DNA from: Albugo candida
Lineage: Eukaryota
Assembly: GCA_040437565.1 (NCBI GenBank)
Contig: JBDOQK010000032.1
Coordinates: 310,001 to 374,000 of the forward strand
Length of the DNA stretch: 64,000 nt
Direction of reading: 5' to 3'
Within the stretch, counting starts at the first letter, position 1, and each line of letters begins with the position of its first letter. A model generated the notes under the pieces. That model had not been told where the DNA came from. It saw only the letters and a program-made list of their open reading frames with translations, and made no database searches. The position numbers and the translations under genes were made by a program. Of the stretch, positions 7,001-16,000 are shown one piece after another.

Positions 7001-7102
7001 AGCTGATACAATCAATTGGACGTTGCAGGCTGGTCACTTTGATTCACTTGATTATATGGAAACTACTCGGCATACATACATACGATACACGCAGCACGGA
7101 GT

Positions 7103-8291: not shown

Positions 8292-9623
8292 TCAGCTATC
8301 ACATTCAGACGAGAAGGAATCCCAATCCGAGCTAGAGTCTGAGAAATCGCCTCGTGGGATTTGAGGAACACGCGAGTGTGCAAAGTGAATACTGATGAGC
8401 TCGTTTTCGACTCGATTACAGTGACCGCATTTTCCATTGCTTTCAAGTAGGCCAAGTCCCCACCCATTGCATCCTGCGCACTGTTGACGCATTTTTGCTC
8501 GGGCTGCAATTGAATCAACTTGGAGGCGATGACAGTGCGCACAAAGCCCATTTTCATGTACTAAATGTAAGCCAACACCGCGACAGTGATCACAACGGTC
8601 GAGTTTGACTGATGTAATGCTTTGATACGCTAACGCGTTGGATGGCCAAGTGACTGACATTGGAAATGCTGCGATCGGCATGGCTGGATACATTCCGTAT
8701 GGATGATAGATTGGAACGGGTGGTGGGAATGCATTCCACGTTGTCATCTTATGGTGAGGATAGGATGCATTTGGTTGTGGCATTGATGCTGGTTGATCTG
8801 GAGATGTGTCGGTAGCGTTGATGTGCTGATGGCTATATGCTGGAGGTTCCTGATGTATTTCTCTCTTGTCTAAATTTCCAGTGGCACTTTCCGGCTTTAC
8901 TCCGTTAGCAAGCGATACGAAGGCTTTCGACTGCCCATTTCTGTCTGATAAAGTGGGTCGCATTGTGATTGCTTTTTCTTGGAAAGCCATTGTAGCAACA
9001 CCAACTTCCGCTCTTCCTCTTGCAATATTTCTATCGACAGCTTCAGAAAGCAATAGAGCTCCCCGCTTGGGCGACTTTCTTCGATCCGGAAAAGATGTTT
9101 TTGTGGTTGTGCTTCCACTTGTCAAAGGGCTTGCAACCTCTTTCGTATCTGTCTCAATAGTGAGAGCTCGAGGATCTGTTTTAGCTCTCTCTTTTATATG
9201 CGTTGCTGACGCCATTTTGGGTTTCAGTACGCTTTCCATCCCACTTGTACCATTTCTCGTGTCCAATTGTGATGGTGGCAAAGTCTCTTTGACGATTCTG
9301 TTGCTTGAAGGACTCTTTTTCTGTATGTTTTCATTCACTTCCGCTAAGAACGCATCGGCTTCCAATTTCGCATTCGCTTGCTTTTGTAACCTCTTTCTTC
9401 GGTATCTCAGTCTTTCAGCAGCGGTCATAGTTGACATTTCATCCATTTCCTTCGGTGTGAAGTCATCGGAAGTGGATATTTGGCCCGTCACACTTTGAAT
9501 CTTTGGAACGCTTTCCATAGCGTTATTTGGCTTCCAGGAAGCATTTAAAGATGCTTGGAGCTTCAGAAACGTTTCGTTGACTTTCTTTTCGCATTTGGCA
9601 CTACTACTTTTGTTTTCTTTCAT
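8292..9623 (-). CDS. Hypothetical protein with two C-terminal CxxCxGxG...NGxCxHC repeats
   Basis: 443-aa ORF, low-complexity body, then CDHCRGVGLHLVHENGLCAHC and CAGCNGWGLGLLESNGKCGHC. Confidence 0.75.
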   Translation of the reverse strand: MKENKSSSAKCEKKVNETFLKLQASLNASWKPNNAMESVPKIQSVTGQISTSDDFTPKEMDEMSTMTAAERLRYRRKRLQKQANAKLEADAFLAEVNENIQKKSPSSNRIVKETLPPSQLDTRNGTSGMESVLKPKMASATHIKERAKTDPRALTIETDTKEVASPLTSGSTTTKTSFPDRRKSPKRGALLLSEAVDRNIARGRAEVGVATMAFQEKAITMRPTLSDRNGQSKAFVSLANGVKPESATGNLDKREIHQEPPAYSHQHINATDTSPDQPASMPQPNASYPHHKMTTWNAFPPPVPIYHPYGMYPAMPIAAFPMSVTWPSNALAYQSITSVKLDRCDHCRGVGLHLVHENGLCAHCHRLQVDSIAARAKMRQQCAGCNGWGLGLLESNGKCGHCNRVENELISIHFAHSRVPQIPRGDFSDSSSDWDSFSSECDS

Positions 9624-10171
9624 TCCGATTTGAAAGTTATAATCGCTTCCGCTTACAGTGAGTTTATCGACGCATTTCGATAGGAAATGGATAATTTATG
9701 TGCGTTTGTGTGTCACATCGGACATTCATCCAATCAGATGTATCTTCCAGTATATGCGTTTAGAGATGCAAAGTCCTCCATNNNNNNNNNNNNNNNNNNN
9801 NNNNNNNNNNNNNNNNNNNNNNNNNNNNNNNNNNNNNNNNNNNNNNNNNNNNNNNNNNNNNNNNNNNNNNNNNNNNNNNNNATATGCGTTTAGAGATGCA
9901 AAGTCCTCCATCCAGACGAGAATTGTAGCAGTCGTTACGCTAGCACAATGCTTAAATGTCAAATTGCTTTTCTGAAATATACCTTGCACCCGTTTCGGGG
10001 CGGAGCAGTGAAATCAGTAGAGTTGTCGTAGCATAGATTGCAGGTCATATATCATTTCTATACGCTTTGTGAGATGTCTTATTCGCAATCGATGTCAGAA
10101 TCATTACATCTCGTCAGAGTGTCCTCTCATATTTGTGGAGCCCATTTGATGGTACGTATATGTTCGTACCT

Positions 10172-10634
10172 TTCACTTTATCGTCACCCATCATGTCCGT
10201 GTGGAGGGATTGGCAGTATTCGTTGATGGCCTGGAGAGCGATGTGCGAGCTGTTGATTGCATTGCAAACTTTTCATCGTCTTTGTACTATCATTGGGAAA
10301 GAATCTTGCTGTCTCATTGGAAGAGCTCTTCGGGACAGCTGCTACCACGACAATATGACTGGGAGCCACTGCATGTACCGACATCCTCGTATGTAGTATA
10401 CCTCGTGTGAATACACGTACGTCGATTTCGAACACAATTGGTAGCTCTCCTCGGTACAACAACTCAGATCGGTATGTGTAAGCAGCGCAATACGAATTCT
10501 GAGATGATGGAGTACTTGCAAATTTGTCTGTTCCAAATAACCGATTTAATCACCATCTCGCATAGCGCTCTGCAGGCCATCAACGAATAATGCCAATCCC
10601 TCCACACGGACATGATGGGTGACGATAGAGTGAT
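10172..10634 (+). ncRNA. Long inverted repeat; candidate structured non-coding or hairpin RNA
   Basis: 10172-10258 is the near-perfect reverse complement of 10548-10634. Extra stem 10262-10281/10502-10521 and internal hairpins; wobble pairs are G:U on the + strand. Confidence 0.5.
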
Positions 10635-10953
10635 AAAGTCTCCAGAGCAAATGCACAGTTGTCGACAAACGAATGATAGATGAACAAGAAGCACGCTAAA
10701 TGAAGATAGCTGTCCGAGCTGTACTCCGACTACAGTGACTATTCTTTTCGTCATGGAATATGTCAATCGTTCCGCGTTATCTCTGATTGATTGCACTCGG
10801 CCAACGCGCCTTCTTACGTCACATTTCATCACTTTTGTATACTTTTGTTTTACGCGCGTGTATACCGTCTTCTAATATAAATATTACGATACTCTCAAAA
10901 TAGGAAGCCTTAAGAAACACCACCCGATACATTCGATCGGATAGCGCCTTATC

Positions 10954-12978
10954 ATGACGTACACCGGCGACTACGTCTTCACAAAGACGCTCACAGAACA
11001 AGAGAAACTTCAAATACAAGAAAAGGCCATCACGAAACTCACCGAAATCATCGGCGTCGAAGTGGATAATGTCATGGCGGTACGTAATCGATCCTCTTTT
11101 GCACCATACAAAGTGAGAATGCAATCCACCAAACGCGAAGAGAATGAGAAAAGGAAACACACAACGCCTCAAATCGGTCTCAATATCAATTTTCAACTTA
11201 TACAAATGCATTTATTATATCAAAAAGTCTGTAGGAGTGTGAGATTTGAAAATGTTGGCTGAATGTCGTGTCTGCCTCTCATCAAGAAACGTCCAGCAGC
11301 AAGCCAAGTCGCTAAATATGACGAGAATGGACATCAATCGCTCCTTTCGGCCCACAAATGGATAGACACTGGTCATACACTGATATACAAAGTGGTTGGC
11401 CGATAAAGTGAGATCTCTTTGGGCCGGAGGGGCTTTATGTCTGAGCAGTCAAACACCGCCTTTGATTTGGTTTCTTGGGCTTGCTGCTGGATGGAGTATT
11501 CTCCGTGCTTTTTTGGTTCTTTGCTATTGCTTTGATTGTATATTGACCCGTAGCACTCTACACATATCTTACCCGTTTCTTTATTTTATATTGCCTTATG
11601 AAACTATTCACAACGGCTGCCTTCAGGAATACGTGCTGGTTATGGTCGCGAACAAGAAGAGCATGACACAAATCGCCCACGATCTGATCGATTTTATCGG
11701 TGATGAAGCTGCAAATGAGTTTGTCACTTGGCTCAGTACAGCACTCCCCACGTTCGAAACACCAACGGGTAGCAGTGAGAAGAGTAAAGTATCGGCCGAA
11801 TCGTCCACAAAGCCAATTAACGAAACCAAACGCGAGAGCAGTCATGAGAAGAAAGTAAAGACGTCTCATACAAAAACAAGCAAAGCGACAAAGAAGAGAA
11901 ATGTCAAAGACGAATCAAATCACATGTCGTCGACAAAAAGCTCCACGAAAACGACAATCAAACTGAGCAGATCAAAGGATCAGGATATAAAGCAAGTGCT
12001 GGCGAAACGATCGCAACGATTTGGAATCACGAAAGAAAACACCGAAGACACACGTCATGAGGAAGGAACGAACAAGAGAAAATCATCAAAAATGGATTCA
12101 AATTCTCAGAAAAAAGCCTCTCGAGTGACTGAATTATTGGGACCTCCCGTCAACGTCGACCAAGCACAACTCGATGCTCGTGATGGTAGAAAACATAGAA
12201 GAACTCGTTCTCGATCGCCGACACGCAATACAAGCGACCGAACTCTTACTGGAACACCACAACGCTCACAAAGAGATTCAAATACCGCAGAAGCAAATAC
12301 CCGTCAACGCCGGACGGGGGAATGGGCTTCCACCGGTAAAGATAAAAGCATGCAATCGTCCTCCCCATCACACGAGAAAATGCACAAGAAGCGGTATGAA
12401 CAGCACGCCTATGGCTATCCGGTACCTCGAGGATTCAACGGCTACCCGCCAATGGTTTGTACACATCAAGTAAACAATCTGAATTCGCTATATGACTCAC
12501 AATTTTTCGTACTTTGTAGCCTTATGGTCCACCTGGCGCTGGAATGTTTTTCGGAGGTCCCGGGCCGTGTCCGCCTCCAATGCCTTATGGTATGGGCTTC
12601 CCATCTCCAGGCTATCCCACTCATCCGAATGCCGCGAAACGCTTCAATGAGCCCATATCTGGTCCTGTTCCAATGTCGGCGCCAAGTGGAATGACGAGAC
12701 GAAATCCGGGCAGAATATTTCCACGAGGTCGTCCATTTCTCAATAAGAGTTGGGTGAATCCTGAGACGGCAAAAAAGACTGAGAGCAATGAGCAGCCTTT
12801 GGGAAATGAAGATGGAGCTGTCACAATCACGTACAATCCTCCACAGAACTCGAAATTCACATCGCATGTAACACGTCCACGCTTCCAGAATAAAACTTGG
12901 GTCCGCACCGAAACCCAAAACGAAAGCGATTTATCGGAATCCTTACCAGTGACACCGCCTCAAGAATCAAAAGAGTAG
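10954..12978 (+). CDS. ZC3H14/Nab2-type PWI-like domain protein lacking CCCH fingers
   Basis: Exons 10954-11079, 11627-12454 and 12520-12978. The splice gives VDNVMA|EYVLVMVANKKSMTQIAHDLIDFIG...FVTWL, closely resembling the ZC3H14 N-terminal PWI-like domain. Pro/Gly-rich tail with two NK(S/T)WV motifs. Confidence 0.8.
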
Positions 12979-13045: not shown

Positions 13046-16000
13046 GCTTGGGTCGGTAGATCGTTCTCAGGCTTGTAATGCCCGCTCTTTCTTTTCTGTA
13101 AGCTCAATGGAGACATCTTTGATCCAAGTACGCGTACCTCTTCCTCTATGCTCAGATCCATGGCGTCCATCCCTCGTACATCTCACACAGATTATCGACA
13201 CTTGTCGCTTCGTCAATGAGCCATTGAGCCTGTTCGGGCACGGACAATGGCGCGGAAAGTGTTCCTTGCGGGTAGCTTTGCACCCGACCGTTCAATTTGG
13301 AATGAATTCTTTCCATCACTTGGATACCAAATCGATTATGCTTTCCAGACGACTCCGTGTCGGCAGATTCTTCCGATTTGGCGAATGGATCGCTTTCGTT
13401 CGATTGCATGGCCGCTGATATCTCATACACACTTTGTGTGACACGAAAGAACAGTTCCAAGCATTTCTGAACCGTTTGTACGAATCGTTCCATCTCGCGT
13501 ATCGTTTTTGGATCCTCCAGCGCCAGACACAAAGTCAGTAGCGGGCGTAGATGTTGTCCGGCAGACTCGAGTTGTATCGACTCGCTGTCATTGAGAAATT
13601 GCTCCATGGACTCCTTCCATTCCGTAAGCTTCGACTCATTCAACTGGACGCATTTCCGCTCATGTGCTTCCAAAAGCAGTCTCAATGGCTCGAGACTGTC
13701 TCCTTTCAACGCTTGCACACTTTTCAACAAAATATTTCCTAGTCGCTCATTCTCTGTGAAGAAAGCCCCAAGCTTCTCTGAAGCCTCTGCGTCGGTACGT
13801 TTCGCGTCCTTCGTCTTGAGCGCACTCGCTTGCTTATAAAGCCCTTGTAGCAGAGATACAAAGTCGTGGATGGTGTCCCGTGCACCATTCGCGTGCTCGA
13901 TGAGCTCTTTGGATGTCGCTGCAATTGTCAAATGCATACGCTCAAGACATTCTTCCTTACCGAGTTGGACGCTTTCCAAAGACGCATTCGCATCATCGCA
14001 TAGACGCTTGAGTTCCTGGACACTCTCCTCGGTCTCCAATATGCGCTCACGCTCATCGACGAGCNNNNNNNNNNNNNNNNNNNNNNNNNNNNNNNNNNNN
14101 NNNNNNNNNNNNNNNNNNNNNNNNNNNNNNNNNNNNNNNNNNNNNNNNNNNNNNNNNNNNNNNNGCTTGGGTCGGTAGATCGTTCTCAGGCTTGTAATGC
14201 CCGCTCTTTCTTTTCTGTAAGCTCAATGGAGACATCTTTGATCCAAGTACGCGTACCTCTTCCTCTATGCTCAGATCCATGGCGTCCATCCCTCGTACAT
14301 CTCACACAGATTATCGACACTTGTCGCTTCGTCAATGAGCCATTGAGCCTGTTCGGGCACGGACAATGGCGCGGAAAGTGTTCCTTGCGGGTAGCTTTGC
14401 ACCCGACCGTTCAATTTGGAATGAATTCTTTCCATCACTTGGATACCAAATCGATTATGCTTTCCAGACGACTCCGTGTCGGCAGATTCTTCCGATTTGG
14501 CGAATGGATCGCTTTCGTTCGATTGCATGGCCGCTGATATCTCATACACACTTTGTGTGACACGAAAGAACAGTTCCAAGCATTTCTGAACCGTTTGTAC
14601 GAATCGTTCCATCTCGCGTATCGTTTTTGGATCCTCCAGCGCCAGACACAAAGTCAGTAGCGGGCGTAGATGTTGTCCGGCAGACTCGAGTTGTATCGAC
14701 TCGCTGTCATTGAGAAATTGCTCCATGGACTCCTTCCATTCCGTAAGCTTCGACTCATTCAACTGGACGCATTTCCGCTCATGTGCTTCCAAAAGCAGTC
14801 TCAATGGCTCGAGACTGTCTCCTTTCAACGCTTGCACACTTTTCAACAAAATATTTCCTAGTCGCTCATTCTCTGTGAAGAAAGCCCCAAGCTTCTCTGA
14901 AGCCTCTGCGTCGGTACGTTTCGCGTCCTTCGTCTTGAGCGCACTCGCTTGCTTATAAAGCCCTTGTAGCAGAGATACAAAGTCGTGGATGGTGTCCCGT
15001 GCACCATTCGCGTGCTCGATGAGCTCTTTGGATGTCGCTGCAATTGTCAAATGCATACGCTCAAGACATTCTTCCTTACCGAGTTGGACGCTTTCCAAAG
15101 ACGCATTCGCATCATCGCATAGACGCTTGAGTTCCTGGACACTCTCCTCGGTCTCCAATATGCGCTCACGCTCATCGACGAGCGATATCTGCTCGTCGAT
15201 CAATTCGTTTAGCAAACTCACTCCAACGCGGTCAACGTGTCGGGGCTTCGCGTTCGAATTACTCGCAGCTTCCCTTCGCGAGGATTCAATGAGAAGGATC
15301 CCGCGCATCACATCGCCAAATTCACGAATGTGCCCGAGCACACGTTTATATCGTCCGATATCCGCCGCCTCCTCTTCACGCCTCTCTTCTGCGTCGTGTA
15401 CGATCTTCTCCATCACATTTACTTGCTTCAATAAAGCGTCTAATTCCGCGGTATGAGATTCCAAGACAGAAATCAATTGCGGTCGGGTAGCGATTCTATC
15501 GGCGATGATTGGAAGGCATTGATCACATGTCCATAGGAGATATCGACGTCGACATTCGACTTTGTTTTGTTGCGTACGGATCATCGCTGCTCGTGCGGTG
15601 ACAAGCTGCGTTCTGCGTTGGGTGCACGAAGCCTTCTCCACTGATTCTTTGACTCGATTGAGAGCCGATTCGACCGTATGGAACCATTCATTGCCGACAT
15701 CACTGCTCCACGTCGATGGTAAAATATCTTCCAACTGATNNNNNNNNNNNNNNNNNNNNNNNNNNNNNNNNNNNNNNNNNNNNNNNNNNNNNNNNNNNNN
15801 NNNNNNNNNNNNNNNNNNNNNNNNNNNNNNNNNNNNNNNCATCGACGAGCGATATCTGCTCGTCGATCAATTCGTTTAGCAAACTCACTCCAACGCGGTC
15901 AACGTGTCGGGGCTTCGCGTTCGAATTACTCGCAGCTTCCCTTCGCGAGGATTCAATGAGAAGGATCCCGCGCATCACATCGCCAAATTCACGAATGTGC

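What the first reader, a model, noticed from the sequence alone, without database searches (positions are those of the whole stretch)
10172..10634. Long, strand-biased RNA fold-back in an unannotated intergenic region: candidate hairpin, miRNA-like or new ncRNA
Seen in sequence: arm 10172-10258 (TCACTTTATCGTCACCCATCATGTCCGTGTGGAGGGATTGGCAGTATTCGTTGATGGCC...) pairs with 10548-10634 over ~87 nt with few mismatches, and a further stem joins 10262-10281 with 10502-10521. The ~220-nt loop is itself structured (GCTGTCTC/GGGACAGC, palindrome GAAGAGCTCTTC, GTACCGA/TCGGTAC, GGGAGCCACTG/TGGTAGCTCTC). The transition differences I checked between arms give G:U pairs on the + strand (they would be A:C on the - strand). 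Inference: this pattern suggests selection on a + strand RNA structure rather than a plain DNA inverted duplication. It lies in an unusually long (~1.3 kb) gap between divergent genes with no credible CDS, and I could not match it by eye to a known RNA family. Very few miRNA or hairpin loci are known in oomycetes.
Basis: partly seen in the sequence, partly recalled or inferred. Interest (0 to 1): 0.75.

Follow-up and report, generated by a model that had tools for sequence, protein, structure and literature searches.

The report
Lone fold-back repeat in white rust
A short stretch of DNA between two genes of the white-rust pathogen has been copied back-to-front next to itself, so any RNA made from it would fold into a long hairpin, but it differs between strains as freely as its surroundings and is probably an ordinary local duplication.

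Summary
The fold-back is real: arms 10173-10258 and 10548-10633 pair at 81 of 86 positions (79 Watson-Crick, 2 G:U), fold z -15.9, single copy in an Albugo candida genome. No Rfam match, no MIR8788 sequence, no target-site duplication. In a diverged strain the arms carry 5 substitutions (3 listed, 2 inferred) and a deletion, all one-sided, at no less than the intergenic rate. Two gap-free fold-backs as long occur in 800 kb sampled. Best reading: young local inverted duplication, perhaps an incidental source of 21-nt siRNA like Phytophthora pin-IR2758. Small-RNA data would decide. A conserved intron hairpin 700 nt away looks more constrained.

The parts
10173..10258 (.). left arm of the inverted repeat (outer 61 bp: 2 differences from the right arm; inner 25 bp: 5)
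10548..10633 (.). right arm of the inverted repeat
10188..10215 (.). 28-bp core, perfectly paired with 10591-10618 in the window and in strain X19; chance of no change at background rate 0.39
   Evidence: (table 8)
10262..10281 (+). inner degenerate stem, 5' side (14 of 20 Watson-Crick); possibly an older part of the duplication
10502..10521 (+). inner degenerate stem, 3' side, set off from the right arm by 26 unpaired-register bases
10282..10501 (.). spacer; folding not above shuffles; no Rfam match
9888..10861 (.). stretch covered by three unspliced contigs (9888-10152, 10186-10620, 10591-10861) of run X8, which holds spliced RNA; strand unknown, DNA carry-over not excluded
   Evidence: tables 5 and 8
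8292..9623 (-). left neighbour: 443-aa ORF, only homologues found are Albugo proteins (A. laibachii AlNc14C78G5182, 53%)
10954..12978 (+). right neighbour: PWI-like protein gene, introns 11080-11626 and 12455-12519; 98% identical to an A. candida protein over the exon searched

Best explanation
A young, single-copy local inverted duplication in the spacer between two divergent A. candida genes. Shown: the repeat, its single copy, and that its arms change between strains one side at a time. Inferred: it arose by a fold-back or template-switch event, its outer part was copied or re-homogenised more recently than its inner part, and it now drifts. Inferred: low-level read-through from the flanking promoters crosses it, the RNA folds into an 86-bp stem, and a Dicer-like enzyme may cut it into mixed ~21-nt siRNAs as at Phytophthora inverted-repeat loci, as a by-product with no selected target.
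For: 5 of 7 arm differences pair on neither strand. Strain X19: 3 listed arm substitutions in 172 nt (1.7%) against 15 in 899 nt of non-arm intergenic DNA (1.7%); with 2 more inferred from contig ends 5 in 172 (2.9%), plus a 1-nt deletion; 4 of 5 switch between a pair and a mismatch, 1 gives G:U, 0 are two-sided. Spacer not structured beyond chance. Older mismatches sit inward (1 of 61 outer, 4 of 25 inner, p=0.024), as from recent homogenisation (mechanism: PMC8604942, abstract). Comparable gap-free fold-backs in 2 of 80 sampled 10-kb stretches, one of them single-copy with its own one-strand skew (0 G:U, 3 A:C). No source or near-perfect target elsewhere in the genome.
Against: Strand asymmetry of folding (-21.4 kcal/mol) is matched by only 5 of 170 neutral simulations, and by 2 of 168 with real arms and shuffled spacer; 10262-10521 folds at z -2.4 on + and 0.0 on - (bounds chosen after seeing the stem). 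A 28-bp core is intact in both strains. The strain comparison has low power: even zero arm changes would have had P=0.057. No outgroup, so 'ancestral pair kept' cannot be told from 'pair restored' at 2 positions.
Confidence: 0.57

Rival explanations
1. A functional + strand hairpin RNA or young miRNA gene: a transcript folds into the long stem, is diced, and the product (probably from the invariant 28-bp core) guides Argonaute to targets in the pathogen or host.
For: Strand asymmetry; only 1x1 mismatches and no bulge in 86 bp; invariant core; cover in an RNA-bearing run; tandem RNase III gene and 4 Piwi-domain matches in the genome; Phytophthora inverted repeats of similar span give 21-nt RNAs (PMC3804510, passages and Table C).
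Against: Arms not conserved between strains, unlike MIR8788 arms across species (PMC3804510 passage); two pair-breaking changes in X19 lie in the outer stem; no MIR8788 sequence; no target found by DNA search (a search that scores only best candidates); 461-nt span against about 140 nt for MIR8788.
Confidence: 0.25
2. The lone relic of a terminal-inverted-repeat transposon (MITE-like), with the arms as its ends and the spacer as its inside.
For: Size (461 nt) and arm-spacer-arm layout fit; arms are richer in G+C (51%) than flanks (42%); MITEs are a major source of young hairpin genes in a plant (10.1101/2024.07.25.605110, abstract).
Against: One locus only in G000 (the tool warns that no match does not prove rarity); only one 3-nt flank match among all boundary pairs tried, out of register; no transposase-like frame; identity falls inward into a degenerate inner stem.
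Confidence: 0.12
3. A new structured non-coding RNA whose functional part is the spacer, closed by the long stem.
For: The + MFE has a multi-branched interior; spacer 10259-10547 z -1.85 on + against +0.44 on -.
Confidence: 0.05
4. Assembly artefact.
For: The scaffold has 11 N gaps in the window, some flanked by duplicated sequence.
Against: No N within the repeat; arms differ at 7 places; contigs of X19 and X13 (two studies) hold both arms, X13 in one contig from 10029 to 10596.
Confidence: 0.01

Closest known systems
Phytophthora inverted-repeat siRNA loci (pin-IR2758 and others; PMC3804510)
   Same: Oomycete, intergenic-type inverted repeat of a few hundred bases (IR2758 714 nt; this 461 nt) that can fold into a long hairpin; Dicer-like and Argonaute genes present.
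   Different: No small RNA shown here; no sequence comparison with those loci was made; no Albugo locus of this kind turned up in searches.
MIR8788 (Phytophthora miRNA family)
   Same: Fold-back in an oomycete.
   Different: No sequence match; three times longer; arms not conserved even between strains, whereas MIR8788 arms are conserved across three species.
Inverted repeats homogenised by template switching (PMC8604942)
   Same: Arms more alike in one part than another; no adaptive explanation needed.
   Different: Those are short repeats in yeast coding DNA; here 86-bp arms in a spacer, and no switch event was caught.
MITEs
   Same: Size and layout.
   Different: Single copy, no target-site duplication found.

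Membership tests
miRNA gene | fold-back precursor | tested here: met
miRNA gene | precise guide/star duplex with 2-nt 3' overhangs, at least 95% of reads from one strand (criteria in PMC3804510) | not testable with these tools
   only contigs were offered
miRNA gene | arms more conserved than surroundings | tested here: inconclusive
   3-5 changes in 172 nt against 15 in 899; not lower, low power; 28-bp core unchanged, P=0.39
MIR8788 | conserved first 15 nt of the guide | tested here: not met
   no match within 2 mismatches at this locus; genome-wide 52 matches against 66 for the control pattern, all listed with 2 mismatches
inverted-repeat (hairpin) siRNA locus | long near-perfect stem | tested here: met
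   81 of 86 paired
inverted-repeat (hairpin) siRNA locus | transcribed across both arms | tested here: inconclusive
   X8 contig 10186-10620 in a run with 2 GT..AG joints; DNA carry-over not excluded, strand unknown
inverted-repeat (hairpin) siRNA locus | heterogeneous ~21-nt RNAs from the arms | not testable with these tools
   no small-RNA reads available
MITE | many dispersed copies | tested here: not met
   one locus; search scores best candidates only
MITE | target-site duplication | tested here: not met
   repeats of 3-11 nt tested over 20 x 22 boundary pairs: one 3-mer, out of register; 2-nt duplications were not printed
any Rfam family | covariance-model match | tested here: not met
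   0 matches at E<=10

The most novel reading that the evidence does not exclude
A newly born, Albugo-specific miRNA-like gene: a + strand transcript whose invariant 28-bp core is diced into a defined small RNA that regulates pathogen genes or is sent into the host. It would be the first small-RNA gene located in white rusts as far as searches show, and a snapshot of an oomycete miRNA arising from an inverted duplication.
Probability: 0.12. Interest if true: 0.6.

Novelty: new member of a known kind. Interest (0 to 1): 0.2.

Why it matters
If neutral, it is one of roughly a hundred such fold-backs in this genome and matters little. If it yields a defined small RNA, it gives a first handle on Albugo small-RNA biology and tests the suggestion in PMC3804510 that oomycete hairpins form a continuum from imprecise siRNA sources to true miRNAs. 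One small-RNA library settles it.

Tried and rejected
Rfam: nothing. Coding origin of the arms: four stop-bounded frames gave no Pfam match better than E 0.1; two frames found only this locus in G000; one frame against 1.84 billion proteins gave 3 hits, all tandem-repeat proteins from single-member clusters whose scores sum weak repeats, rejected. Not all six frames were searched. Viral origin: 0 exact matches for one 18-mer. Orthologous loci: metagenome scans gave none or 66 distant MutS loci whose identities (27-56%) rule out a near relative; I did not open them; no relative genomes are held, so cross-species covariation was not tested. No RNA holder listed on record. Run X16 covers only 9882-10572; its blank over the right gene proves nothing. 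Contig depths in X8 (13.8 over the hairpin, 6.4 and 9.7 beside it, 104-266 in the gene) cannot rank expression and are not used as such. No silent control stretch was laid. L038 (262-bp repeat) was dropped from the background count because two N gaps lie in its span, as was one L076 row. Promoter motifs (recalled consensus) match at both arm ends, but a 7-mer of that kind occurs 12 times in 2.1 kb: ignored. rRNA is almost absent from the assembly, so a guide target for the intron hairpin could not be tested. Earlier findings were not available. bioRxiv supplements were not seen; PMC3804510 File S1 was seen only as Table C part 29.

Full report
Observation. The repeat is there. Arms 10173-10258 and 10548-10633 are 86 nt, 92% complementary, 289 nt apart, and dwarf every other inverted repeat listed for the window. 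In register they give 79 Watson-Crick pairs, 2 G:U and 5 one-by-one mismatches, all five transversions. The region folds at -230.7 kcal/mol on + (z -15.9) and -212.6 on - (z -13.5). The inner stem is in the + fold but has 14 Watson-Crick, 3 G:U, 2 A:C and 1 U:U of 20. The spacer inside it is not more stable than shuffles (18 of 100 as good). Rfam gives nothing at E<=10.

Setting. The right neighbour is 98% identical to an Albugo candida protein, with Phytophthora and Pythium homologues; one homologue passes the Pfam PWI cut-off narrowly. The left neighbour has Albugo homologues only, the A. laibachii one at 53%. The N gap at 9782-9881 is probably a 30-base contig overlap. The repeat occurs once in the 36.6-Mb assembly (the search scores best candidates only). 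No target-site duplication of 3 or more bases fits the ends. No coding origin was found.

Strand bias, for and against. Transitions between arms are G:U on + in 2 of 2 (arms) and 5 of 7 (with inner stem), p=0.23. This is modest support, weakened because the locus was picked partly for this bias and because shuffling removes the inner stem, which a duplication could also leave.

Strain variation (4 of 24 listed runs laid on 9882-12760). X19 shows 34 listed substitutions, in line with about 1% between races (PMC4384639, abstract and passages). In the arms 3 are listed: 10222 breaks a G:C pair, 10553 fills a mismatch, 10561 gives G:U. Two more are inferred from contig geometry: a double-depth 34-nt contig at 10188-10221 requires that 10590 pairs with 10216 in X19, and its left end with one unlisted difference in the next contig places a pair-breaking change at 10619. 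One base is missing at 10548. X13 (another study, depth about 5) shares 10553, 10561 and the deletion. No change is two-sided. The rate is 3 or 5 in 172 against 15 in 899 for non-arm intergenic DNA (p=0.35 with 5); 3 unlisted differences in one flank contig were not counted in that background. So the arms are not conserved, but power is low: 2.9 changes were expected, and none would have had P=0.057. A 28-bp core is unchanged and perfect in both (P=0.39 by chance). Mismatches shared by both strains lie inward (1 of 61 against 4 of 25, p=0.024). At the intergenic rate the arms are about five strain-divergences apart, the outer 61 bp about two: young (inference).

Transcription. Run X8 has two GT..AG joints in the right gene, so it holds RNA, and three unspliced contigs cover most of 9888-10861, including one across the spacer and into both arms. 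Contigs give no strand, ends or level, and DNA carry-over was not controlled. The genome has an ORF with two RNase III domains and four Piwi-domain matches, so processing is possible.

How ordinary. In 80 stretches of 10 kb from 10 contigs (800,000 bases, 16,300 N; not a random sample) a self-BLAST found 25 inverted repeats of at least 40 bits within 1 kb, against 2 in shuffles of 40 of them. Gap-free repeats with at least 79 matched bases lie in 2 stretches (L043, L056), with at least 57 in 5. L043 is single-copy and has its own skew, 0 G:U to 3 A:C. Roughly a hundred such loci genome-wide is a crude extrapolation.

Mechanism. Most likely (0.57) a local inverted duplication, partly re-homogenised as template switching does (PMC8604942, abstract only), now drifting; RNA read through it would fold and may be diced as a by-product. 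A selected hairpin RNA or young miRNA gets 0.25, a lone transposon relic 0.12, a new spacer RNA 0.05.

Comparison. PMC3804510 (passages; supplement Table C, part 29) reports that Phytophthora inverted repeats yield ~21-nt RNAs from heterogeneous (pin-IR2758, 714 nt) to precise (MIR8788, about 140 nt, arms conserved across species). This locus may work like IR2758; membership is untested for want of small-RNA reads. It is not MIR8788. PMC4791657, PMC10080066 and PMC7297541 were seen as passages; the last reports no gain of resistance to A. laibachii in an Arabidopsis ago1 mutant, which does not favour a cross-kingdom role. 10.1101/2024.07.25.605110 was seen as abstract. Searches listed no paper on Albugo hairpin or small-RNA loci; subscription journals are mostly missing from that library.

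Verdict. A real, single-copy, unconserved fold-back; a new member of a known kind, interest 0.2. The neighbouring intron hairpin (11291-11494) shows better signs of constraint and deserves its own look.

Noticed in passing
window 11291-11494 (+), inside intron 11080-11626: A second, rod-like hairpin of about 200 nt in the long first intron of the PWI-like gene: z -6.4 on +, -4.0 on -, single copy, no real Rfam match. No listed change in X19 or X13 over 11222-11555 (P about 0.004 at the intergenic rate, bounds chosen afterwards; 0.03 for the hairpin alone; intron 3 of 547 against intergenic 20 of 1071, p=0.04). Run X8 has both a spliced joint and a contig through the whole intron. It holds box C-like (11318) and box D-like (11380, 11441) words by recalled consensus. 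Candidates: intronic snoRNA with an outer stem, or a regulated retained intron in an RNA-binding protein gene.
   Followed up: partly
L043 6810-7067 (G000:C10:56810-57067): Single-copy near-perfect hairpin with about 122-bp arms (97%) and a 14-nt loop, just downstream of a minus-strand ORF ending at 7084; a cleaner Dicer substrate than the locus given.
   Followed up: partly
window 9752-9911: The 100-N gap is flanked by an exact 30-nt direct repeat; probably a contig overlap, not missing DNA.
   Followed up: partly
window 13107-15842: The end of the 2070-aa kinase-like ORF appears twice across N gaps (13152-13937 repeated at 14271 onward), likely an assembly duplication.
   Followed up: no
L056 2356-7876 (G000:C5:130001-140000): Cluster of at least ten overlapping inverted repeats of 79-89% identity, probably nested repeats.
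   Followed up: no
L006 4467-5281 and L021 3855-4077: Shorter inverted repeats whose arms contain CCAAT-box-like words facing each other (motif recalled), possibly duplicated promoter pieces.
   Followed up: no
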